From assembly GCA_051362555.1 (NCBI GenBank), contig CM120640.1, forward strand, positions 57,762,788 to 57,826,787: a stretch of 64,000 nt of DNA. Direction: 5' to 3'. Origin of the DNA: Lingula anatina (taxonomy: Eukaryota; Animalia; Brachiopoda). The notes under the pieces are model-generated. The model saw only the letters and a list, made by a program, of their open reading frames with translations. It made no database searches and was not told where the DNA came from. How positions within the stretch are numbered: the stretch's first letter is position 1; every line of letters starts with the position of its first letter. The position numbers and the translations under genes are program-made. Of this stretch, positions 6,200 to 26,400 are shown piece after piece.

Positions 6200-6352
6200 T
6201 CACATCTTTGACTTGAAATATCTTTTGAATTCCTGCCGGGCTATGGCTCTCATATGGACCTCATCTGGACCATCAGCTATCCTTAATATTCTTGCCCACA
6301 TGAACATGGCTGCCAATGGAACATCAGAGTTCACTCCAGCCCCACCAAAAGC
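6200..6352 (-). CDS. ACAD10: ACAD10 distal alternative last exon (ends ...KSKM*)
   Basis: ttctag acceptor, 153 nt: [50 protein letters not shown]. Confidence 0.9.
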
Positions 6353-9300
6353 CTAGAACAGAAAACTTAAATCCTGACAGAAAGTTGAGCACATCAAATG
6401 GACGCCAAGAGGACAGGAAGAGTAAGATGCAGCAGAGAGTTACAGCTTTGATTTCAATAACTTCCTGAGTTCCCCCCTGGCTATAGAGCGTAAATGAACT
6501 TCATCAGGACCATCTGCCAATCTGAGTGTTCTTGCTGCAGCAAACATGGCAGACAGTGGAATGTCGGAATTGACCCCAGCACCTCCATGAGCCTATGGTT
6601 ATAATGCAACAAATGACAAAATGCAAAATGTACAAAGTGTAAGTTGCACAAATAGAAAGTTAAAAAAAAATGTAGACCTTCACAAACTGAAGCAAATATC
6701 CAAACAATACATAGAAAAGTGAGTACCAGCACGAGATGGTGATTATATTAGTTATAACAATAAGTTAGCATTTCCAATATAGTAACTCTACCTTGTGACA
6801 GTGTTTGCCTTTCTTGTAATGTATTGTCTTATTTTCTGTATTATTATTATTAGTGTAAGTTAACATTTACAGAACACATTTTTAATAACTTAAAGTAGCA
6901 AAAATTGTTTTCACCTGAATTGCTCTATCAATCACATTAAGTGCCATGTTAGGAGCTGCCACTTTTATCATTGCTATCTCTGGAGCAGCAACCTAGAGGC
7001 AGAGACAAATATAAAATTCAACTTTCAAAGTTTATGTTGAAGCACAATCGGTATTAACTCTATCAGAATCACTTTTAGACAAAACAAAATGAAGAATATA
7101 TTAAGCAAGATCAAACTTTGCATAAAGCTACACTATACATAAAATGATAAAATAAAACTCACTTTCAAAAACAGTTTCAGAATTAAGACAAATTACTTTT
7201 AAACTGTTACTTTCAAAAGATGCAAGCAGACATTATACATACATGACAACTCTTACAGCACCAGATGCTAGTTTAACACAGTGATAATTCTCAAGCATGA
7301 AATAATGCCCTGGTCTCCATCTAATACCTTATTTCCTACAGTGTCCATCATATGGGCAGCTTTGAGCACCAACAGTCTGGTCTGTTCTATCTCTATTCTA
7401 GACTTGGCAATGTCAGCTCTGATGGTCCCTTGATCAGCAAGAGGCCTACCAAAGGCAACACGGTTCTGAACCTACACAGAAAAGTGAATATATAAAGATA
7501 CTATTATTTTAACATACGTCAAAACAAACCTGCCATTCCCTATCAGACGAGATCAAAGTTTTCACATTTTTCTTTCACTATAAAAACAATTTTCTTGACT
7601 ATTTAGTTTAATTCATTCTTACATCTCCATAGGGATATTGCATTTTCCTTGAAAATTTCTTTTTAAAAATTAATAAATACATAAAGCAGTGGATTTTTTA
7701 TAGTAAAACTATATTTCAATTGCTCTTACTCTATCTAACATAAGATCCAAAGCTCTCTCAGCAGATCCTATCAGTCTCATGCAGTGGTGGATTCTTCCTG
7801 GGCCAAGTCTACCCTGGGCAATCTCAAAGCCTCTCCCTTCACCCAGCAGTAGATTACAAGCTGGCACTCGAACATTCTCAAACAACACTTCTGCATGGCC
7901 ATCTGTGAAAACAAAATAATAAATTTCCTTTAGTTTAGGTTTAAAATCTTTAACAACAGAACAGGGGCAACCTCCATGTTTACAAACAAAAAATAAATAA
8001 AACTGCTTATGAACTGTTGGTGGTAAATTTAATTATGGAACTCAAATTTGCACTTCAGCTCAAATTGTTTAATTCTAAATTATCACAATATCCTTTAAGA
8101 GGCTCTGAAAGTTAAGAAACACAAAAACATACGTGGTGCATCCTGGGATCCGAACACATTAAGAGGCCTCAGTATTTTCACCCCTGGGGCATCCATTGGC
8201 ACCAGGATCATACTCTGCTGTCTGTGCATTGGTGCCTCAAGGTCTGTCTTACCCATAAATATGGCCAATTTACAACGGGGATCCATTGCACCTTAATCAA
8301 TATATGAATGAGAAAACCCAAAATCTATATAATGTAAGACAACTCACATCATTACCCAATCACTTACAAGTTACCACCAAACAAAAAAAAAAAAAAAAAA
8401 AAAACAAAACAAAAAAAAAATGCAATTTATCACAATAAATTTAATGTGTGAAAAGATATCCTATTTGAAAATGGAAAATTCTTTTATGAAACAATGAAGT
8501 TTTACTCTTACCTGATGTCCACCACTTGTGTCCATTGATCACATATGAATCTCCATCTCTTCTAATGGAGGATTCAATATTAGTTGCATCAGATGATGCA
8601 ACCTAAACCATGAGAAAAACATTTATATAACAAATTCTAATCATGTATCAACTGAAGCCAGATCATTTTAAAGGAATAATAACTGTTTGCTTTGGCCAAA
8701 AAATGAATTTTCCTGGAGTAAACAACAATTTTCCCATACTTACCAATGGTTAACGAATCTGTTTCTACATTCAAAGTTAGTCCCTGTTTTTTTTTTTTCT
8801 AAAAAGTTTGGTTTTATGTTATAATCTCTTAAGAGATTATTACAGAGTATATCCATCTATGGAGGTCACATTAAGTTAATTATGAAAATTAATCTACAAT
8901 GATCAAAACTACTATGATCTAAATATCTTGTACCTCCATATCAATCAGACCTTATATAATATTTTGACAATATGATACTAAAGTTAAGATCTTGTGTCAG
9001 TTTCAAGTACTTTGTACCACTTAAAAAAGTATCTGCACCTCATTTCTTACTTTGTGGCATTTGAAGTCTAATGAAGGACACAACGGCATGAAGAATCTTT
9101 GAGAAGAATCTAATCTATTTTTACTTTTGTAACACAAAAAAGACCTATCCACCAATCAACTTCAAATTTATCAATGAATATTATATAAGACTTCTTGCCA
9201 ACCAAACATTACCTGTGGTTCAGTCATGGCAAAGCAAGACCTAATTGTTCCCTCCAGCAATGGAGTCAACCATTTCTGCTTTTGTTCCTCTGTTCCGTAA

Positions 9301-12300
9301 CGTATTAAAACTTCCATATTACCAGTGTCAGGGGCACTGCAGTTGAATATCTGTGAGGTAAAGAATGTGATTGTGGAGACCAGTTTATTTGTAAGCAAGG
9401 GTAGCCTTATGTAAAAAGAGACTAAGATCATCTATTTTTTCCAAGAAGAAAAAAGAAGAAAAAAATTTAAAGACAAAAATAAATAAATATATAAAAGAAA
9501 TAAAATAACTCACAATTTTATGATCCTAACCATAAAAATCATCCAGATGATATTACGATAACTGTAAAGGTAGCGTAACATATCATTCACAACTAAGGGT
9601 ATAGGACACATATTATAATACCTCTGGGGCAAACACACACTTCCCCATCTCCTCACATATCATAGCATACTCCAGATTGGTCAGACCAGCCCCATAGTGA
9701 CAGTCTTGGTCAGATTCAATTGGAATGAACAAATTCCATAAACCTTCAGCCTTGGCTTTGGCCTGTTAAAAGAAAAAACAAGGCAGCAAAGCTGTCAAAT
9801 GTACAGACAAAAAACAGAAAATAAAGATGCAAAATAGGTCATTTTGTCAATTTTGATGCAATAATAAATAATGCTTATAATAACACAGTCAGTTAACACT
9901 GATTTTTAAACATGCACAACAGGTAACATGGTCAATAACAGGAGCAGATCAAGAGATATTTTCTGACAGTATTCCAAAGTATCTTTGTTGATCCATCCTC
10001 CACTTTTGATGGTCTTCCAACAGAAAAAATTGATACCAGGCAATGTAAACTTTAAAATCTGACCGTCATCTGACCCAGAAGACGGCCTCAATCCACCCCT
10101 GCAATAAGATTACAGTTTCTGGACTATGAGAGTTCAAATTCACATAATGAAAATCCCAATATTTGAAAAATGTTGACAGTGCATAAAATAATATTATATA
10201 ATGTTTAAAGACATAAAAACCTATGCAACTGCTTATGTGGAAATACAGAAAATCTGAAGAGCTTCAGGTGGATGGGAGTTGAAAATGCCAGTGTTTAGAA
10301 AAAAATTAAAAAGAAAACACAAATAAAAAAAAAATATTCCAATAAAGCTGCTATTCAAACTTTTAATCTTGCTGTATTAACATGATATGAATAATCCCAA
10401 TGTGTTTGAGGATAATAAGGCACTGTTATTCATCTATAGCATTAATGTTGGCATTGCACAAATTTTTTTTCTTTTGTAAACTTATTTGCAATATTAAACA
10501 ACATTTACCTGCATAATTATCACCAATTCCTAATTATGTGACACAGTTAAGAGAGCTTAACCTATAGGACTTGAATGGGAAATCTCAACGTGTGTTTTAT
10601 GTAATCTTATTTAATGGGCACTTGAAAATCAATTAGGCAAGTAATTTTATAGCTCTGAATTTGGCTAGTGATTATCCCAAGGGACAATTACCACCATCCA
10701 TAAACAGTAGCCCCATATAGCACTCCATAGAGCTGCATTGCTTCCAAAACAGAAAACAATCACACTGATTTCCAACACAAGCTACACTAGTCCTATGAAA
10801 CTTTTCAGTAAGTTAGAATATCATAAGTAAAATGGTTTTTCCTTAATGGTCATCCCAGCAGCGATGTCCAAAAAAGTTTTTTTTCATCTTTTATGCAATT
10901 TAACATAATGCTTAACAGCACAATGGCCATCAATTTTTAATAATAAAGAAAATGTATCATAGCTATTCAAAAGATGTGACTAGCAATGGTATTCAAGCCA
11001 ATGAAAGTTCAAAGACTAAGTCACACCTTGAAAATGTCCATATGTGAAAATTTTAATTGTAACAAAAAACTATATAATCTCCAAGAAAGTTAACAGATGT
11101 AACAGGTTTTCCAACTGAAGCTATAATTTAGTGCTATGCTACATTTCTATAAGTTTGAGAAGAGTAAGTGACTTGGTTTTCCTTTAATGGTCACTATGGA
11201 GGCATTGTCTAAAATGGGGTTGTCTTCAATTTTGATGCAATATTACATAATGCTTCACAGCATAATGACCATCAATTTTTAATAATAAAATAAAAGTATC
11301 ATGGATATTCAGAAAATTTGATATGGAAAGGTCTTCAGGGCCATGGAAGTTCAGAGTCACAACTTCAAAATCAGGCCTACCCAACTGCCAGACTCGGCAC
11401 CTAAGGATCCTGAATTAACCGGTATATATCGGACCACACTTCCCGTTTTCAAGGTGTGTGTCAGATCGCATTTCGGAGTATCAGCCAGAACACCGACAGG
11501 ATGAGCCCTGGCATGCTCGGCTGTCACCTTGATTGGATAGTAAACGATTGTCGTAAAATCGCTATATGATTTTAAAACCAGGTGCATGATTTTGAAAGCC
11601 ACCTAGATGAACCTTAGACTGCCACATTAATCTAATACAATGCAAAAAAAGCCCTATCAAAAGTGGTTAAAACATTCAAACCGAATGTTGTCAAGTCCCC
11701 ATATATCCCCATAGAGACAATAAAATAGAGTGCTCTAAAGTAAGAGTACAGTTTAAGGTTGTTCAGCCGAGCGTGGACGAGCCTGCAGTCGTGCTACAAA
11801 ATTTGTTCTGGGGTATGATACTCCGAAATGCGATCTGACACACACCTTGAAAACGGGTAGCGTGGTCTGATATACCGGTTAATTCAGGATCCTTAGGTGC
11901 CGAGTCTGGTAGTTGGGTAGGCCTGAAAATGCCAAAATGTACAAAAGAGATAACTGTACTGAAATGAATTTCTTTCCACTTTCAACACTTTTTTTACATA
12001 TATCAAAATAATCAATTTACTGTTGTTTTTAAATGATCAACTAAGAAAGTTGTTGACATAGGAAAAATATCAATAGAACAATTTCAAATGTCCAATTTGT
12101 TCCATTCTGAGATTCTGAACATGGTGAATGATTGAATCTGACAAACTGTAAAGATATGAGTTTATTTCCATTTTTGACACATTATTACAAAATGCACAAT
12201 AACAGGTTTACCATCATTTTTATATAATCAACTAACAATATTGTTAAGATGCAGAAAACGTCAAAAGAACACCTTTACATTACTAATTAGTTCACAAATG

Positions 12301-15300
12301 AGATTGTTAACATGCCTAAGAATTAAATCCGAGGAAAAAAGACTTATATACAAAAAAAGGCACAATTTCACCAAAACTGAACCGATCAAGCTTATTTTCG
12401 AACCTCATCTGTATTTTAGTAAATCTGATCACCCCTGTGAATTTCAAGACGATTGGCCAATTGATTTTCCTTGAAATGTGTTATCGGTGTTGCACATATG
12501 CTGAAATAGTGAAAAAACAGCATAACTTCCATAAAAAAGGCCCGATCAGACTGATTTTTGAACTTGACCTGCGTATTATGAATATTCATCATTTCTGTAA
12601 GTTTCAAGCCAAAAGGTAAAACTGTTTTTCACTTATCGTGTTATCGGTGTTGCATTTATGCTGAAAAAAATGAAAAAATTGCATAACTTCCACAAATATG
12701 GCCCGATCAAGCTGATTTTCGAACTTGACCTGCGTATTATGAATATTCATCAGTTTTGTAAGTTTCAAGCCAAAAAGTAAAATGGTTTTCCACTTATCGT
12801 GTTATCGGTGCTGCATATATGCTGAAAAAAGTGAAAAAACAGCATAACTTCCCTACAAGTGACCCGATCATGCTGATTTTCGAACTTGACCTGCGTATTA
12901 TAAATATTTATCAATTCTGTAAGTTTCAAGCTGAAATGAAAAACAGTTTTCCACTTATCGTGTTATCGGTAAAAGTGCACGGCGACGACGACAGACGCAG
13001 GTGATGGCTATATGTACAGACACATCTGTGTCTGTACATAAAAAAGTGACAGCATATACTGTTTAAAATTTTTCATGCCAGCATTACAAAGGGTCATGAT
13101 GTTTTGGTAATATATTTGGTATATTTGATGAAATAATTTATCATATTAAACATTTATAGCAAAGCAGAAAACAACTGAATTTAGAAAAAAATTCAATGGC
13201 TTATCATTTCTCACATTTTATCATCCTTATTGCCCATACCTTAAGTTCCTCTGTTTTAGGATGAATGGTCCACCTGTTATCAGCAAATGAATGCTGTGTA
13301 AACTCTCCTTCTAATGGCAAAATGTGCTCTTTAATAAACTGTTTCACTCTTTGATGGTAGTTTTGGGCCTTGAAAGACAGTGCAGACACTGTCACTGGCA
13401 TGGGTGCTGGAATAAAAACAAAATAGTAGGAAAATAATTATGTACTGGGAGAAATAAATAATTACAAAAGTTGACTCACACTGGCATGATCTAATATCAT
13501 CCAATCTACTCATAAGTTACTAACTAAGCTAAATTAATTTTTGGTCAAAACACATTTTGCCTGTTATACTTCTAAAATGAAAATTGAAAACACTGGTGAA
13601 AATTCTAAATGTAAGTGTGAATTCTGCACTATTCAACATCCATTAGTCTACAGTATTTTAATATATTGTGTAAAGTGTAACTCAACTTTGTGAAGATAAT
13701 ATTAATATTGCTAATTACATTTACCTATTTCTTTTCCAGGCATTGTTGATGTGGGCTGTGTTAAATAGTGCTGCCTCCCTCTACTTGTGTTATCAGTGCT
13801 TGCCGTGTTGTTACTATTTGATGCTATTCCCCAGCCTACATTAGCTGTCAATTCTGCTAGGGAACCAATGGCTTCTGCATCTGGAGCTGCTCCCTGTCCT
13901 GAAAAAAAAAAGCACATCCAAATGTGATGTTGGAGTCACTTCTTATTAAGTAAAGAAAAGCCAATCTTGCATCCTAAATCCTACATATATGTATGCCTGC
14001 CCAGATAAGGAGGGGGGGCTTTAAAATTTACTTGGCAAAAAAAGCTTTGGAGACCATATTTTGTGTTAATTTACCCCCTGTGGTATAAACAGTAACTGCT
14101 AACACACACAAATATATACACTAATGGAATTTCTTATAGGTTTATACATTATATGAGTGCATTTTATGGTATGCCACTTCTCAAGTGGCATCACCTGACA
14201 ACAACATTAAAGTAAATGAGACTTAAATAAGGAGAATCATATTGAAGCGAGTAAACATTTCAGAAGTCTTGAATATAGTTCCTTATAGATTCCAATCTTT
14301 TCAAATCATAAATAACAATGAGTGTAATAATTACCCACAACCTTTGTCCAAAGGTGTTTCTTAATTGTCAAATTATAGTGTCCTGAACATAAAAGTTTTA
14401 CACCTCTTAACCTTCGAAGGCTGTGCATGGCCAAAGTCCATCCAAGTTATTAACTAGTGCCAACAAATAATCAAGTCAGTGTTAGTCAATATTTGGGACT
14501 AAGATAAGCACAGATAAGCACCAATGGTAAGGTCAAACATTTTCTGTAGAGAACATATGCATTTCCTAATGAATAAATGTGCATATATTATAGGTGGAAG
14601 TAAACATGCCTTAGAAAATAATTTTGAGTTTTTTTCACCCCCAAACCAGATTATTTACTTCATTGAAAAACCATTTAAAGAGTTTTTTGGTTGTTTTTCC
14701 CTGTCACTTGACAATTCATCAAACACAATGCACTTAACACTGTACAATTACTGATCTGATAAGGCTGCCAGATCCAAAACTGAACAGATTTAGAACCCAG
14801 TGAGCAAACCAGAAGAGGAAAAAAACTGCCCATCAATATCAGGCTAAAGTGTAATTAACAACATGTTTCCCTCTGCATCACTAAAATCCTGCACTTGACT
14901 TACCATATTCATCTTTACCACATGTCAATAACTGTTTACACTATGACATACACAGTATCTTAGTCAAATCCCAATAATTTAAAATTTTTACATCATAAAC
15001 ATTTAGAATACTTTCCATACAGGTGCAACTACCTGAAATTGCTCTCTTATATACTCCTTGTAAAATAGCAGCCCCTCTGAAGCACTGAAATGCCACATAA
15101 AAGTTCCAGTTGGCAATGGGTGGGATGTTCAAGTTCCTGCAATATGTATCTAAATATTCCTGTTCTGAGGGAAGCCCTAGTTGCTGGATATTTTTGTTGG
15201 CAAACCCTAAAAATAAACAAAGATGAAGGCATAACTGAATGGTTAATATCGAATTAACTATAAATAAGACATTAAGGTTAATAATGTGAACAATGAAATC

Positions 15301-16692: not shown

Positions 16693-19600
16693 CCGCTCTC
16701 TCTGTCAAATATTTAAAATCTTTTCCACAAAGTAATCGTTTATGTTCTTCAGTATAATGACAAATTTGGAAACATTTTGAAAACAAGTGCCATTATGTAT
16801 ATTCAACAAAAGAAAGAACAAAAAAGGTGTTTTTATACATATTAAAATATGTCTTAATGATTGTACATTTATTAATAATAGCTAATGCATGCTTACCTGT
16901 CTTCCTCACAGAGTGCTAACATTTTAGGAACAGGTACTCCCTGGGTGCCCACTGCTTTCATGACTCGGTACTCTCTTTCCACAGCATGAGCGGAGGGCAA
17001 AAGTTTCCCTGGCTGGAAAAATTCAGAATTTGGTGAAAAACAACATTCTTTATTTCAATATGCATCTCAACCTCTATCCCTTTTCTATCTCAACAGATTT
17101 ACTACTTTATAGTATGTAATGTGGCCACCTACAAATTAAACAGATAACTTATTACAATATTAAAAATCACTGTGATTAGCACAATAAAACAAACAGCATG
17201 TGTAAGATAGATATTTATAAATCTAATATTATGACAAGCAAAGCTGAACTTAGTTATGACAAACAACCATTACATGTACCAGAGCTGTTGCCAGATATAT
17301 TGCGGCAATGCTAAGCATAACATAAATACAGTACATGGCTTATAAGGATATATAAGACTTCTTTTCTTTACTTACTGGTTTCTTTCTTAAAACCAAATTT
17401 TTTCCACCATAAGAAATGAAGTAAGTAGGATTTGACTGACCGTGGGCAAAACATCTGACAGCAGGTGGATCTGAAACAGCAACATTCATGGTTTGACTAA
17501 TATATACTATAAAGAAGAATACATTTCTGATATCAATATTGCTGTATATATAACAAACTATGCCATTTATATTGCTGTAGGCTAATGTTTTATCAAGAAA
17601 CCACTGGCCCACTTCTCCCAGGTCAGTGACCATTCCAGACAGGCAAGTAAAATCTGAACTTAACTTGTCCAAATGACTAGCATCTGACTGTAAAATAAAT
17701 GATTCTGAGCCAAGCTAATATCCTTAGAGATCTATTAACATGCTTGTCCAGTGCAAAAGAAAACATTTTGTAACACTATATATGCTATCTTCATAGCATA
17801 TCTCTCACATTAACACTGTACTGAACCTACAGCATTATTAAACACATACTAAACTTGCCTTTTGAGTGAATCTTTAATACCCAGTTCATGTATCTTGTAA
17901 GTTTCATAACAGGTAACTGTAGATTTTCTGGAACAGCTATTGTGCCAGGGTAAAAACCTCTTACACCAAACCCAACTTCTGACTCCAACTTCCTTATTGA
18001 CTGATCAACCTCACCTACATCAACCTAGAAGAATGGCACAGAGCCTTTTACCAGGATTGAAAAGAGATACAGACATTTCCTCTGTTGCTGTCCCTCATTG
18101 GGGCTTTTTTGTTTCATCACTCCCATATCAAGTAATAATCAATTTTGCACTAGAGCAATCCTCAAAACCCTGTTCCCATTTTTATAGGAAACCACAAAAA
18201 ATGTATTTCCAATATAGCAGATGCATCTGACAAAGGAAATGGCAATCTATCCCTTTCCACTCACATGGCAACAATCACATTTTGAACATTTATTTCACAT
18301 AGTACTTGCCTTGGGAATGAAGATCCAAAGCCTCATTGAGGTATTTTGTTAATTTGTCAATTGGAAGCTCCAGCCTCTTTGGTACTAAAGTTGTTCCGGG
18401 ATAAAAACCCCTCAATGAAAAACCCAGGTAAGTCTCCAATTGTTTCAAACTCTGTAAAGGCTCAGTCTGTGAGACCTCCAAAACAAATCAAAGAACAATG
18501 TCAAGCAACAGCCTGTATATATCACCACAAACACTACGGGTATATTGCTTGCTTTGCATGCTATGCACCAGTTGTTTAGCCATTAATAATTACATGAATT
18601 GCAATGTATTTAAGGCATTGTCAACAAAATTTATCATTTTCATCAAAATTTAGAAAGATACCATTTAGAAATCACGCACTGAAACTGAAGCACACTGTGG
18701 ATGCAAAAAATAAAGCATATATATATATATCAGACAATTTTATTGAATTTCATAAATTACAATGTTAAAGGATATTATTACTAAACAAATCAATAATCAC
18801 TATGAAATAACTATGAACTCATAAACAGTTAAAGCTAACATAAAAACTGATGATTGCTAATATAATTTACTTATAAACATCAGCTGAATAATCCACACTT
18901 TACACCTTACCCTTATTTAGTAAATTTTTGAGAATGTCAAAAAATAATTTAAACAATAAATTAAATCAAAAGAAGATTCCATTAGAAAATTCCTTTTCAC
19001 AGTAAAACATAAAGATCACCTTTATTGTCCTCATTCCCATTTCTTTTGCTGGTTTCAGGTTCCTTCCAATGTCATCAAGAAATATCACTTCCTCTGGATG
19101 AACATTCAGGGCTTCTAGGCACATCTGGTATATCTTAGGGTTTGGTTTCTTGATTTTCACGATACATGATTCCAATATCTAAAACATTTAAAAAATGATG
19201 TATCCTTTACTCGATAACAGTGTTATAACTGTTCAGTCATGCATTATGTTCTTATCAAAATTATTTGAATTTTTAATGTTTCTTGGAAAACATAAGCCAT
19301 TCAATTACAAAGATAAATTAGCCATTTAACCAAAAGTCTCATTCCTTAAAATATTTTTTAAAGCTACGCACTACATCAAAAAGTTTTCTGTCCAAAGGCA
19401 TTGCAGACTGTGTAGGAGTAATAAGCCAGTTGTTGGTGATAAGGGCTGTCTTAATCCCTTCTGCTCGAATACACTGTATGGCATCAAGCATCTCTGGATA
19501 TGGTCTCGCAGTCATATCTGTCAGTCCATAAAATAAGGTGGAAGCATCAATCTTTTTCCCAACCTATGTTCATAAAAGAAAAAATATTGAGGAGAATACA

Positions 19601-21071
19601 TGAACAGTAGATATGTGGATACACAGAGATCTTTTTCAGAGTCTCTGCAGAGAGCTTAAATGTGTAAACAACAAATACATTTACAGTCTAAGTAAATGAA
19701 CATTTTATTGAAATGGAGCAATGGAGATACTTTACAGTGTATATGAACTAAATATTGTAACATAGATGCTGCATTACAATTATTTAGATGCTGAGAGATA
19801 TTATGTGGACAGTGGCAATATATGCTTTACTCGTCTTTAGGGGTGCTGGTAATAGCAGTACCTTCTCTCTTCATGCATATCAAATATAATACACTGACCC
19901 CCTCTCATGCTACGTATATGCCTTTAACACCTTGAGCATTAGGAAGAGATGTTCTTGCATATATCGCTTGGGTAACTAACATGGCATTTATGGGTGACAG
20001 TGTATTATCTAACACATAATCCCAAACTGACTTCAATATGTTTTGAAAAATAAAAAAGTTTGCAGAAATATTGCAGCAATATTGTTGCAAACTGAAAGAT
20101 TGCAGCAACTAGTTTGGAGGATGTTGCAAAAAATAATTTACTGTTGGTAACTTGCAGCCATATTGCAGCAAAAAATTGCTGCAGATTTGCAAGAAAAAAT
20201 TGCAGTTTGCAGAAATATTGCAGCAGGCCTGACATTTTGCTATGGAAAATCTCACACTTACGTGACAACTTCACTTATTCATTAAAAACAAACAAAACAA
20301 CAGTTGATAAATGGAGAAACCCAAGTAAATCCTATACCTTGTCAGATAAACCTCTGTTGAACTCCTCAACATACTCCTTGAATGTCATCTCTCCTCGATC
20401 CAGTTTGGCCCAGCCACCTTGTTCTCCAAGACTAACTATGAACTCATTAACACTGTTTTTAGGAAGGTTGAGTGCAGCTTCAAAATCTAAAGAAAAATTT
20501 GACATTGCATGCTTATGATGTGTAACATGTAATTAAATTATGTTAAAAAAAAAAACTAAACAAATAAATCAAATCAAAAGCAGGCTGGAAAAAAAGCCAT
20601 ATGAAATACATTTTATCTTTCCTTGACACCTTTTAAACTTTTTGGAAAGAAAAAATTAGTTTTCCATAGAATTATAATTAAACTTAATTTTGTCATGTAG
20701 CATAAAAGCCTGTTGCTTGACAATGTTATTTGGTTTTGGGGTCTCACAGACTGAACCCTTACAGAGTTTGAAACAACATTTACATGTAAAATCTGGATAC
20801 TAATACATAAAATTACATTACATTATATAACGTACTGGATATTAAAAATAGGTAAATGGTATATACACCAGTACAAACCATTGAAAGCCTGGAATGGAGA
20901 TGGTAAAAGCACCCCTCCCATATCAAATATGACTGCTTTGGTAGGTGTAGTAGTAGAGCCATATCTCCTGGATCCTCTACCCTCACTGCACACTGATGTC
21001 GCTACAGCAGGGGAATGCTTCAATACATGACCAGAAAGGCTCTTCAATCTCATCTGGGCCAAACGCATCAT
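6200..21071 (-). CDS. ACAD10: Acyl-CoA dehydrogenase family member 10 (HAD + APH-like kinase + ACAD domains)
   Basis: Coding exons (approx.): 21071-20879, 20486-20338, 19563-19372, 19178-19020, 18475-18310 (6a) or 18024-17859 (6b), 17470-17376, 17012-16897, ~16569-16389, ~16198-16048, 15736-~15591, ~15207-15033, ~13898-13724, ~13407-13240, ~9762-9622, ~9349-9213, ~8602-8512, ~8291-8133, ~7902-7730, ~7471-7328, ~6992-6915, then 6592-6440 or 6352-6200. Motifs: [21 protein letters not shown] and FLDD; kinase GQSNPTY and [12 protein letters not shown]; [24 protein letters not shown] and ADGPDEVH. Confidence 0.95.
6440..6592 (-). CDS. ACAD10: ACAD10 proximal alternative last exon (ends ...KSKL*, canonical PTS1)
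   Basis: catag acceptor, 153 nt, phase 0, open: [50 protein letters not shown]; 34/50 aa identical to the distal exon. Confidence 0.88.
9777..13045 (+). mobile_element. Helentron-associated (HINE/pearl-like) element with internal tandem repeats
   Basis: 5' end ACAAGGCAGCAAAGCTGTCAAATGTACAGAC; ~370-bp degenerate units then ~160-bp units (CCGATCA.GCTGATTTTCGAACTTGACCTG); GACG-type microsatellite; 3' hairpin TATGTACAGACACA-tc-TGTGTCTGTACATA followed by an A-run; no TSD seen. Confidence 0.75.
11372..11925. mobile_element. MITE with ~120-bp TIRs and 5-bp TSD, nested in the HINE-like element
   Basis: CAGGCCTACCCAACT... / ...AGTTGGGTAGGCCTG; AAAAT on both sides (11367-11371, 11926-11930). Confidence 0.9.
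16668..16703. repeat. (CT)n microsatellite
   Basis: Direct reading. Confidence 0.9.
17859..18024 (-). CDS. ACAD10: ACAD10 mutually exclusive exon 6b
   Basis: ttctag acceptor, 166 nt, GC donor (AAG|GCAAGT): [55 protein letters not shown]; same length and phase as 6a, 28/55 aa identical. Confidence 0.88.
18310..18475 (-). CDS. ACAD10: ACAD10 mutually exclusive exon 6a
   Basis: Rare GAG acceptor, 166 nt, GC donor (AAG|GCAAGT): [55 protein letters not shown]. Confidence 0.88.
20710..20776 (-). promoter_or_regulatory. Intronic element complementary to the exon 6a branch point/acceptor/5' end (candidate long-range RNA pairing)
   Basis: Inverted copy of 18440-18511; the 36 exonic nt give 34 Watson-Crick + 2 G-U pairs on the transcribed strand. 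The regulatory role is inferred. Confidence 0.7.
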
Positions 21072-23464: not shown

Positions 23465-26400
23465 GTATAATACTGTGATTATAGATATCCATGTTTTGAT
23501 ATTTTTTCTATCAGACTATCTCGCTGAAAAACTAGCATAACATCTGTTTAAATTAAAATTGGTTGGACTTGGTAATATGCTGGTAATTAAGTATTTGATT
23601 AGTAATTTTCAGACTTTCTATTGTTATCTAAGATTTATTTGAATGGATAAAAGAATTTATTTACCCAAATAATCTTTTCTGTTACCTTCGAATGATTGGT
23701 ATTTTGATACATTAACTTATTTAAGGTAAGCGGATCGCCCACCAAATTCCAGATGAGATACTAAATGATGTTCAACTTCAGAAAGCTGTCCAGCAGGTAT
23801 TGTTTGTTTCAAGCTCTTGCTTGTATATAATTACTAAGTAACATTTTGCCAAAGTATATTAATTTTCTTTTTATGATTTCGATGAGTAGTAATTTGATAA
23901 ATGGTATGTAAATATAAATGTACTTTTATATTTTTTTCTTGTTATTTGCAGCTTCCAGCCAATTACAATTTCGAAATATATAAAACTGTTTGGAGGATAC
24001 GTAGTGCACAAGCTAAAAGAGGTAGGATAACACGGATTTGCTATAAAGCAGAACTTGACTGTGTTTTTATCACTAACTGGGCTATTTATCATTTGTTGTG
24101 AAGAAATTCTCTTTTCTGATTGGTTAAGCCTGCATGATGTTGATCTTTGCCCATATTTTCAATTTAAATAATCAATCCATTGACTGGTATCAGGCCTAAA
24201 AAATTGCTTTGGTTGTTTTTATCCTTGTCAGGTATAAGCCACCTGCATGTTTCTTCCATCTGTCCAGGTCTTGAGCTATCCTCTCTAGCTCTTTCCAACT
24301 TCAGACTAGTCTCTTGGTTTTGGCCTCCAAGTCATGATGCCAGGTGTAACATGGCTTACCCCACCTCCTTTCTCCTGTTGGATGCAATATGAATCATGAA
24401 TAAGTGATGAATTAGTTATTCCATATTTGTTTAAAGGATTGTATACCATTTGACAACCACATCCTAAAGGCCATATGATACATATAAACCTGTATATGCA
24501 GCACTTAATAATTTGTCTGTAAGAAAAATATATTTCCTATTTGTCAGGATATGCTTGTTTCTTTAATACAGTGTGATCAACCCAACAACAAACAAAAACA
24601 TCCTTAATGAGCTATACATTATTTCCATCAAGTGTTGATATATTATTGGCAGAAATTTAGAAAGAAGTGACTTATTGTATTGTAGTGGCCCTGCAGTTTC
24701 CAGAGGGACTACTATTGTTTGCTTGTCCAATTGCTGATATCATTGAAAGGTTGGTAAGATTTTTTAGGAATCATTGAGTTACTGATATTGAAATCAGCTT
24801 GTGTTATCCTTTAAAGAAGCTGATAATAGATTTAAGATGAATTCAAAAGAGTACAAAAATGTATATCAAATAAGTTTTAGTTTTGTATTTTATCTATTTT
24901 CAATAAAAATGTGGTTCTGTAATATGTGGCATGGCTTTTGATTCTTAATTGTAGTACCAGGCATAAGAGTGCATAAGATTTTTTTTCCATATAGATTTAC
25001 AGATGCAGATACCTTGATTATGGGGGATGTCACATATGGTGCTTGCTGTGTGGATGATTACACTGCCAAGGCTCTTGGTGCAGACTTTCTTGTGCACTAT
25101 GGACATAGCTGTTTAAGTATGTGAACACAGTAATCACCAAAAGTTTGAATACTTACTTGTAGCATCTGTGACTCAAAAACATTTGAAGTATAAACATTTA
25201 TAGTTTAGAGGATTCCACCCTTCTTATCAATTTGACAAAAAAAAAAATATATATATATATATATATTAAGTGATGTGAACTTGTATTGCATCGGTTGTTG
25301 GTATAACATTTTGTATAATTGTATTTTAGTGAGGAGCAAATAAGTATTAAGTAGACATTTCTTATTAAATACTTGTCATTTGAAGATTGTATTAGTTTAG
25401 TAGGTTAGTGCTTTTCTTTTGACAGTGAGTCAACAATAGTTGAATGATGATTATATATAATTGATTGCCTTTTGTTTTTCAAGTACCAATTGACACACAT
25501 GAAGGCGTCAGAATGCTGTATGTTTTTGTTGACATCAAAATTGACCTGGATCATTTTATACAAACTGTAAAATACAACTTTGAGCCTGGTTCATCCCTGG
25601 CCTTGGTCAGCACAATTCAGTTTGTTGCTGCAATCCAGGTAAAATTGAAAATTATGTATATTTTAGCCTACATTGTTTAAAATGACAGAATGTCATGTAT
25701 GTTTAGGTTCTGGAAATTCAAATTACAATAAACTAAAGCAAATAATCTAACTTTGTCTGATTAATAAGTTTTTACTACTTTAACGTACTTAGGCCCTTCA
25801 CCCTTTTACTATTATAAAAATGTTAAAACATAAATGCTGTATTATGTTTTGATTTTATTATTGTAAGAGTAAAATGAGATATATTGAAGTTGATCTATAT
25901 CAGGCATCATCTCAGCAACTAAACTCTGAATATAAAGTTACCATCCCTCAGTCCAAACCTTTGTCTCCTGGTGAAATCCTTGGCTGTACCTCCCCAAGAC
26001 TTGAAGATATAGATGTTATTATGTAAGTATTTAGTATGCTTAAATCCCATACACTATCATGTAATATTGTCAAATAAGAAAAATGTGATAGCTGTGTTTG
26101 AACTATTTTAATTAAAAAATCTTAAAATCTTCTATTTTAAAATCTTAAAGACTTGATGCTTCTAAGCACATATTTAGAAGGATATATTATTAATTCGTAA
26201 TGTTAAATCAGGACATCAATTTTTCTTAAGATAATTTTAGAATGTAAAATATAATTGTTTTTAGAGTTGACACGTTTCTATTTTCAGTTATCTTGGTGAT
26301 GGAAGATTTCATTTAGAATCCATTATGATTTCAAATCCTGAGATCCCAGCTTATAGGTAAGACAAGGGTCATACTAAGCGTTTGTATGTGTGTGTGTGCA

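What the first reader, a model, noticed from the sequence alone, without database searches (positions are those of the whole stretch)
17859..18475. Mutually exclusive exons 6a/6b at the HAD-kinase junction, both with GC donors
Two 166-nt exons with the same phases (0 in, 1 out), 28/55 aa identity, a shared RGFYPGT core and the same AG|GCAAGT donor. Including both or neither shifts the frame, so exactly one must be used. 6a has a rare GAG acceptor (an in-frame CAG lies 9 nt downstream); 6b has TAG. Only 6b has in-frame ATGs (MKLTRYM) near the kinase start, so it could also initiate a HAD-less, presequence-less protein (inference).
Basis: partly seen in the sequence, partly recalled or inferred. 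Interest (0 to 1): 0.8.

Follow-up and report, generated by a model that had tools for sequence, protein, structure and literature searches.

The report
Swappable hinge exons in brachiopod ACAD10
In the lamp shell Lingula, the lipid-metabolism gene ACAD10 carries two old copies of one exon, both spliced into RNA (one commonly, one rarely), which swap the hinge between its phosphatase-like and kinase parts and likely fine-tune the enzyme; a ribbon worm's annotated proteins show the same swap, but exon swaps of this kind are well known.

Summary
Confirmed. The window holds Lingula anatina ACAD10. Exons 6a (18475-18310) and 6b (18024-17859) are 166 nt, 28/55 identical, both with AG|GCAAGT donors. 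RNA reads show 6a is the major exon (43 listed reads into exon 7). 6b is a real minor exon: exon 5>6b loose ends in run X6, and 4 reads ending exactly at its donor, about 8%. RefSeq already annotates both (X1, X3). Exclusivity looks leaky: RefSeq X5 and a UniParc protein imply a 6a>6b join, which hits a stop at once. The exon encodes the last HAD helix, the linker and the first kinase helix; 6b's kinase helix is basic (+4 against -1). The nemertean Lineus swaps the same segment (0 against +5); the tree favours a separate duplication without rejecting an ancient one. A HAD-less protein starting in 6b is unsupported. The last exon is also swapped, in nine spiralian genera.

The parts
18310..18475 (-). 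exon 6a, major copy; residues 232-286 of the 1046-aa protein (RefSeq X1, X2)
   Evidence: joints 18475-19020 (14 reads) and 17470-18310 (21 reads); 22 more loose-end reads
17859..18024 (-). exon 6b, minor copy (RefSeq X3, X5)
   Evidence: 3 loose ends at its acceptor in X6 with exon 5 consensus, 2+2 reads in X3 and X6 ending exactly at 17859
18304..18309 (-). GC donor of 6a (GCAAGT)
   Evidence: joint with ends CT..GC, 21 reads
17853..17858 (-). GC donor of 6b (GCAAGT)
   Evidence: depth drops to zero exactly here in X3 and X6; one X4 read pair runs through it unspliced
18476..18478 (-). GAG acceptor of 6a
   Evidence: used by 14 reads
18025..18309 (-). 285-nt intron between the copies, ending in 6b's TAG acceptor; long enough to be spliced out
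18020..18022 (-). TGA met immediately if 6a is joined to 6b
   Evidence: matches the end of protein P0008
18334..18336 (-). ATG inside 6a that is in frame with 6b after a 6a>6b join; start of RefSeq X5 (824 aa, no HAD, no presequence)
   Evidence: its use is untested
17887..17907 (-). two in-frame ATGs of 6b (Met271, Met277), inside the first kinase helix
   Evidence: no evidence of use as starts
19020..19178 (-). exon 5 (HAD core), upstream partner of both copies
17376..17470 (-). exon 7 (kinase N-lobe), downstream partner of both copies
6440..6592 (-). alternative last coding exon, upstream copy (ends SKL)
6200..6352 (-). alternative last coding exon, downstream copy (ends SKM)

Best explanation
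Exons 6a and 6b are two old tandem copies of one ACAD10 exon that are spliced as alternatives, 6a in most transcripts and 6b in roughly a tenth, and the swap likely tunes how the HAD domain sits on and restrains the kinase. Shown: both are spliced to flanking exons; each gives an open 1046-aa frame. Predicted by model and homology: the 55 residues form the last HAD helix, an ordered linker and the first kinase helix, away from the catalytic motifs. Inferred: exclusivity is not enforced by intron size or spliceosome type; two equally weak GC donors and unequal acceptors compete, occasional 6a+6b transcripts are made, and these would be removed by nonsense-mediated decay because a stop follows the join at once. 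Inferred: the basic, Trp-bearing helix of 6b changes the HAD-kinase contact or a surface the enzyme binds. History: the same segment is swapped in the nemertean Lineus, more likely by a separate duplication (about 0.6) than by one ancient event.
For: Reads: 5>6a 14 and 6a>7 21 (4 runs); 6a>7 22 loose ends (4 other runs). 6b: 3 loose ends at its acceptor with exon 5 consensus (X6, agreement 0.78); 2 reads each in X3 and X6 stop exactly at 17859; X6 depth at exon 7's edge equals 7 6a reads plus 2 reads joined at 17470 (140 = 7x16 + 2x14) and 2 of its 15 reads are laid whole. Share of 6b at exon 7's acceptor 4 of 47 (8.5%, 95% range 2-20% if reads were independent). RefSeq X1 and X3 differ only here. 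Old and constrained: 8 of 12 four-fold sites differ, 16 of 28 identical residues use different codons, 40 of 55 second positions are kept, flanks are no more alike than shuffles. Structure: helices 237-248 and 270-279, block pLDDT 88-95; stand-alone HAD frames end with the first ~20 positions of the segment; mouse ACAD11 aligns from residue 268. In human ACAD10 the HAD stays joined to the kinase after maturation and restrains it (PMC11342911 sections 6, 8). Charge of the last 18 residues: 6a -1, 6b +4, Lineus X1 0, X3 +5. No short intron, no branch-like motif near the 6a donor, no duplex beyond shuffles.
Against: 6b support is thin: no 6b joint reached the tool's 3-read listing, the 6b>7 join is read from depth arithmetic, and read pairs may be single molecules. 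6b had no reads in 2 of 8 runs (X2, X8); in X4 its only pair runs unspliced through the donor, and one X6 read is unspliced at the acceptor. Runs were matched by species label, not indexed to this DNA. No protein-level or activity data; the effect on the enzyme is inferred from a human paper. The tree tests reject none of the pairings (p 0.37, 0.17, 0.29), and in the best tree 6b groups with nemertean sequences rather than with 6a.
Confidence: 0.78

Rival explanations
1. One ancient spiralian duplication produced a neutral and a basic, Trp-bearing version of this exon; Lingula and Lineus kept both (with partial homogenisation) and other lineages kept, or are annotated with, only one.
For: The Trp-type helix occurs in 15 of 58 rows, only among spiralians where the row is named, and needs 7 changes on the tree of the rest of the protein. 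Lingula 6b groups with Lineus and Tubulanus (98/86) and not with 6a. In the last 18 residues 6b is closer to Lineus X3 (11) than to X1 (7). The a-with-a and b-with-b pairings are not rejected (p 0.17, 0.29).
Against: The Lineus copies are sisters (98/85; 36 of 55 identical against 25-28 across species) and share nemertean-specific indels; both Lingula copies share a length not seen in the other rows. Both Lineus copies have the Trp. No swap at this exon in the other 21 of 23 groups compared. In the first 37 residues 6a and 6b are about equally like Trp-type rows.
Confidence: 0.3
2. The point of 6b is to make a HAD-less, presequence-less, ACAD11-like peroxisomal enzyme from the same gene, either from the ATG in 6a after a 6a>6b join (RefSeq X5) or from ATGs in 6b.
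For: RefSeq X5 has this architecture and ends SKL; UniRef names it ACAD11. 24 of 33 named spiralian homologues end in a strict PTS1-like tripeptide against 0 of 65 named non-spiralian ones (consensus recalled). One of 3 X6 loose ends disagrees with exon 5 to the degree that 6a would (0.778 against 0.78).
Against: About 11% of random 30-mers give the same match count, so that read is only compatible. In a transcript that carries exons 1-5, the ATG lies at the end of a 287-codon upstream frame that stops in 6b, a poor setting for initiation and a likely decay target (background knowledge). No transcript start near 6a or 6b was listed, and no reads lay in the five bins wholly inside intron 5. Lineus has no such isoform among 3 members.
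Confidence: 0.1
3. 6b is a leftover duplicate included by splicing noise and has no function.
For: Low inclusion, unspliced reads at both its ends, no reads in 2 of 8 runs.
Against: An open frame and both splice sites, including a full GC-donor consensus, survive although synonymous sites are near saturation and the flanks have lost all likeness; 6b scores almost as well as 6a on the family profile and is the copy closer to nemertean sequences.
Confidence: 0.07

Closest known systems
Tandem-duplicated, mutually exclusive homologous exons (catalogued for human in PMC9741552 and PMC5740500)
   Same: Adjacent homologous exons of equal length and phase, embedded in folded structure, one common and one rare, length not divisible by three so joint inclusion shifts the frame; recurrent duplication in orthologues is already documented.
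   Different: Not in human ACAD10 as far as seen: PMC9741552 main text does not mention ACAD10 or ACAD11 (supplements not opened). Both copies use GC donors and one a GAG acceptor; the swapped piece bridges two enzyme domains.
ACOX1 alternative exon pair (55 aa, 28 conserved; passage in PMC9741552)
   Same: Homologous exon swap of the same size and identity in an acyl-CoA-oxidising flavoenzyme.
   Different: The ACOX1 region includes FAD-binding residues; here the swap is in the HAD-kinase hinge. The ACAD10 last-exon pair, which carries the catalytic Asp, is the closer parallel.
Mammalian ACAD10 (HAD + APH-like kinase + ACAD; PMC12440821, PMC11342911, PMC13596139)
   Same: Same three domains and catalytic motifs, N-terminal presequence-like region, disordered kinase-ACAD linker.
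   Different: Lingula protein also ends in SKL or SKM and has two exon swaps; its activity and location are untested.
Mammalian ACAD11 (PDB 8v3u, 8v3v)
   Same: RefSeq X5 of this gene has the same kinase + ACAD + PTS1 layout.
   Different: X5 is a predicted isoform of an ACAD10 gene, not a separate gene; its translation is unshown.

Membership tests
Tandem-duplicated mutually exclusive exons | Adjacent homologous exons with the same length class and phases | tested here: met
   166 nt each, phase 0/1, 28 of 55 identical; two copies only
Tandem-duplicated mutually exclusive exons | Each exon spliced to the common upstream and downstream exons | tested here: met
   6a by listed joints; 6b by loose ends and depth arithmetic on few reads
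Tandem-duplicated mutually exclusive exons | Joint inclusion absent, or frame-shifting if present (criterion as in PMC5740500) | tested here: met
   6a+6b gives an immediate stop; no 6a>6b joint listed; two database proteins imply it occurs
Tandem-duplicated mutually exclusive exons | Both isoforms made as protein, with regulated (tissue or stage) choice | not testable with these tools
   No proteomics; samples are coded and depth is low
Steric-hindrance MXE | Donor-to-branch-point distance under about 50 nt | tested here: not met
   Intron is 285 nt; branch-like motifs only 104-115 nt before the acceptor; AG-free zone 18 nt (simple motif scan)
U2/U12-incompatibility MXE | The two exons flanked by splice sites of different spliceosomes | tested here: not met
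   Both donors are the same AG|GCAAGT, both acceptors AG
Docking-site/selector RNA-structure MXE | Competing, conserved intronic base pairings | tested here: inconclusive
   No duplex beyond shuffles in 5 region pairs (2-7 of 10 shuffles as low); no related intron DNA to test covariation
ACAD10 | HAD + APH-like kinase + ACAD in one chain with catalytic motifs | tested here: met
   Pfam list and name; E 1.5e-229 to mouse ACAD11 and 9e-29 to the epoxide hydrolase 2 N-terminal domain; HGDF, DWE and [10 protein letters not shown] present
ACAD10 | Kinase, phosphatase and ACAD activities; mitochondrial import | not testable with these tools
   Inferred from homology only
ACAD11-like product (RefSeq X5) | No HAD, no presequence, C-terminal PTS1 | tested here: met
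   Sequence of P0005; PTS1 consensus recalled
ACAD11-like product (RefSeq X5) | Actually transcribed and translated in that form | tested here: inconclusive
   One compatible read at most

The most novel reading that the evidence does not exclude
Spiralian animals run a single, doubly addressed ACAD10 (presequence plus PTS1) as a modular enzyme: an ancient or repeatedly re-evolved swap of the HAD-kinase hinge (neutral against basic helix), a swap of the catalytic last exon found in nine genera, and a 6a>6b route to a HAD-less product together supply from one gene the diversity that vertebrates get from ACAD10 plus ACAD11. The natural hinge variants would then be a ready-made test of how the HAD domain restrains the kinase.
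Probability: 0.2. Interest if true: 0.6.

Novelty: new member of a known kind. Interest (0 to 1): 0.33.

Why it matters
How ACAD10's HAD domain restrains its kinase is open (PMC11342911), and its substrates are debated (4-hydroxyacyl-CoA against ether lipids; PMC13596139). A natural pair of hinge variants, kept under selection in a brachiopod and paralleled in a nemertean with the same neutral-against-basic split, marks the segment as tunable and gives two variants to compare. It also adds a metabolic enzyme to the cases of recurrent exon duplication. The splicing type itself is ordinary and both isoforms are already in RefSeq.

Tried and rejected
No RNA holder was listed by the index; nine runs came by species label and eight were laid. 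No whole genome is held, so paralogues (a separate ACAD11 gene) could not be sought. A search with the 6b peptide alone found nothing at E 0.01 among 9 candidates (weak test). Use of the CAG 9 nt inside 6a: no such joint listed. Steric, U12 and RNA-pairing mechanisms: not supported. Proteins holding both copies: 0 of 188 with a hit. Animal genomic DNA for relatives: the metagenome scan with exon 5 returned 80 loci whose matches to the segment cover only its first ~20 positions at the end of uninterrupted HAD frames, so none tests for a second exon. The search of cluster representatives did not run, so other lophophorate copies remain unsought. The group table lists the Lingula pair as one side of a branch only because ungrouped rows are ignored; the drawn tree does not join them. 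The W label was off by one column; the last-exon pattern was read by eye from the printed rows. The last-exon tree is unresolved at depth. Eight earlier scan notes found by sequence concern bacterial split ACAD10/11 operons and do not bear on the exons; none exist for this place.

Full report
Identity. The 6a peptide matches, at 100%, acyl-CoA dehydrogenase family member 10 isoform X1 of the brachiopod Lingula anatina. The gene runs on the minus strand from about 21.7 kb to 6.2 kb and encodes a presequence-like start, a HAD domain, an APH-like kinase and an ACAD domain.

Observation. Either exon alone keeps the frame; both together stop at once, and neither stops 27 codons after exon 5. A profile of the segment finds just these two copies in the window.

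Expression. Eight of nine offered RNA runs were laid, four on 16800-19700 and four on 17361-18071; only 6-26% of each run was read, and runs were matched by species label. 6a: exon 5>6a in 14 reads (2, 4, 6, 2) at the GAG acceptor, 6a>7 in 21 reads (9, 6, 6, 0) through the GC donor, plus 22 loose ends carrying 6a sequence at exon 7 (6, 7, 9). 6b: no joint reached the three-read listing. In X6, three reads stop at its acceptor and continue with exon 5 sequence (agreement 0.78, so one of the three differs); two reads each in X3 and X6 stop exactly at 17859; in X6 the depth at exon 7's edge is exactly that of seven 6a reads plus two reads joined at 17470, and 2 of 15 reads are laid whole. In one search, X1 (106 nt), X7 (40 nt of a 150-nt read) and X5 (two reads, about 17883-18026) also cover 6b with empty flanks, partner unknown. 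Against: X2 and X8 have no 6b reads, the X4 pair runs through the 6b donor unspliced, one X6 read is unspliced at the acceptor, and mates may be one molecule. 6b's share at exon 7 is 4 of 47, about 8% (2-20%).

Annotation. The RefSeq cluster has six members. X1, X2, X4 use 6a; X3 uses 6b and differs from X1 only there. X5 (824 aa) begins with nine residues read from the 3' end of 6a in another frame and continues into 6b, and a 326-aa UniParc protein ends with the Gly-stop that a 6a>6b join gives. These look like two frames of one double-inclusion transcript (inference), so exclusivity is probably leaky. The discordant X6 read fits 6a (0.778) but about 11% of random 30-mers would fit equally.

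How exclusivity works. The intervening intron is 285 nt with no branch-like motif near the donor, both exons have the same splice-site type, and no intron pairing beats shuffles. What remains is splice-site competition with frame-shift decay as backstop, a class described for human MXEs (PMC5740500, section 7 read). Decay itself is inferred.

Age and constraint. Eight of 12 four-fold sites differ, 16 of 28 identical residues use different codons, and 200-nt flanks are no more alike than shuffles (147 and 122 of 300 as high), while 40 of 55 second positions, the length and the GC donor with four further bases are kept. Of five read variants in 6a, three are silent and two change one codon; none breaks the frame.

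What is swapped. AlphaFold2 on a 60-row alignment (mean pLDDT 84.8, pTM 0.55) places helices at 237-248 and 270-279 with block pLDDT 88-95 across the exon. Stand-alone HAD frames in metagenome loci end with the first ~20 positions of the segment, and mouse ACAD11 aligns from residue 268. So the exon is the HAD-kinase hinge. Human ACAD10 is cut between kinase and ACAD, leaving HAD and kinase joined, and the HAD restrains the kinase (PMC11342911, abstract and sections 6, 8 read). The last 18 residues carry charge -1 in 6a and +4 in 6b. That the swap tunes this coupling is my inference; nothing was assayed. The low pTM means domain packing in the model was not relied on.

Relatives. Isoforms were compared in 23 groups drawn from 21 clusters (one cluster held a single full-length protein per species and was not compared, and the Mytilus and Magallana clusters were only partly listed). 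Only Lingula and the nemertean Lineus longissimus (X1 against X3) swap this segment; the Lineus pair has charges 0 and +5. In a tree of the segment (32 of 58 rows, 53 columns) the Lineus copies are sisters (98/85), then Tubulanus, then Lingula 6b (98/86); 6a is unplaced; AU tests reject neither the Lingula pair (p 0.37) nor a/b pairings (0.17, 0.29). Shared indels within each species favour separate duplications. A basic Trp-bearing form like 6b occurs in 15 of 58 rows and needs 7 changes on a tree of the rest of the protein (56 rows), which keeps an ancient duplication alive. No genomic DNA of related animals was reachable, so unannotated copies are untested.

The HAD-less idea. Met271 and Met277 lie in the first kinase helix, about 19 residues inside ACAD11's N-terminus, and no transcript start was seen. 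Still, 24 of 33 named spiralian homologues end in a strict PTS1-like tripeptide against 0 of 65 named non-spiralian ones over 900 aa (consensus recalled), and C. elegans has a single, peroxisomal ACAD10 and no ACAD11 (PMC13596139, section 4 part 1 and section 12 read), so a presequence-less isoform would plausibly go to peroxisomes. I give this route 0.1.

Literature. Searches for 'ACAD10' with 'isoform' or 'mutually exclusive' and 'mutually exclusive exon' with 'Lingula' showed no title or abstract start on this event (listings only; most subscription papers are missing; the MetazExp database listed mentions Lingula and was not opened; no supplements were read). PMC12440821: outline, passages, section 6 part 1 and section 7 read. 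PMC9741552: passages only; it documents convergent tandem exon duplication and the ACOX1 case. Searches were seen as listings.

Verdict. A real, expressed, selected pair of alternative homologous exons, already in RefSeq and of a familiar kind; its parallel in a nemertean and its position at the HAD-kinase hinge add modest interest. Score 0.33.

Noticed in passing
window 6440-6592 and 6200-6352 (-): The last coding exon, which carries the catalytic Asp and the PTS1-like end, is also tandemly duplicated (RefSeq X1 against X2). Alternative last exons occur in nine spiralian genera (Lingula, Lineus, Dreissena, Ruditapes with 3, Mytilus, Magallana, Saccostrea, scallops counted as Mizuhopecten, Physella with 3; also Pecten and Ylistrum). 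By eye, in each of the nine one copy keeps the Trp seen in outgroups and the other replaces it; mouse ACAD11 lacks it.
   Followed up: partly
P0016 against P0131 (Ruditapes), residues 465-509: A third homologous swap in ACAD10, covering the kinase DWE motif region.
   Followed up: no
C-termini of homologues: Spiralian ACAD10s mostly end in a PTS1-like tripeptide as well as starting with a presequence-like region (24 of 33 strict) whereas 0 of 65 named cnidarian and deuterostome ones do: possible dual targeting.
   Followed up: partly
window ~13745-13790 (-), residues about 605-632: The disordered kinase-ACAD linker holds an Arg-x-His-Tyr-Ser-like stretch resembling the internal processing site reported for human ACAD10 (PMC11342911 section 6).
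   Followed up: no
window 11357-11504 and 11763-11920: Two inverted copies of a ~140-nt element and a tandem array at about 12300-13000 lie in the long intron of the ACAD part; probably a small transposon remnant.
   Followed up: no
runs X7, X8: Reads of one study are mostly 95-99% alike to the window, with many fixed differences, suggesting a distinct population or cryptic lineage under the same species label.
   Followed up: no
window ~24900-26030 (+): Exons of a neighbouring gene on the opposite strand that look like diphthamide synthesis protein DPH1 (name recalled from motifs, not tested).
   Followed up: no
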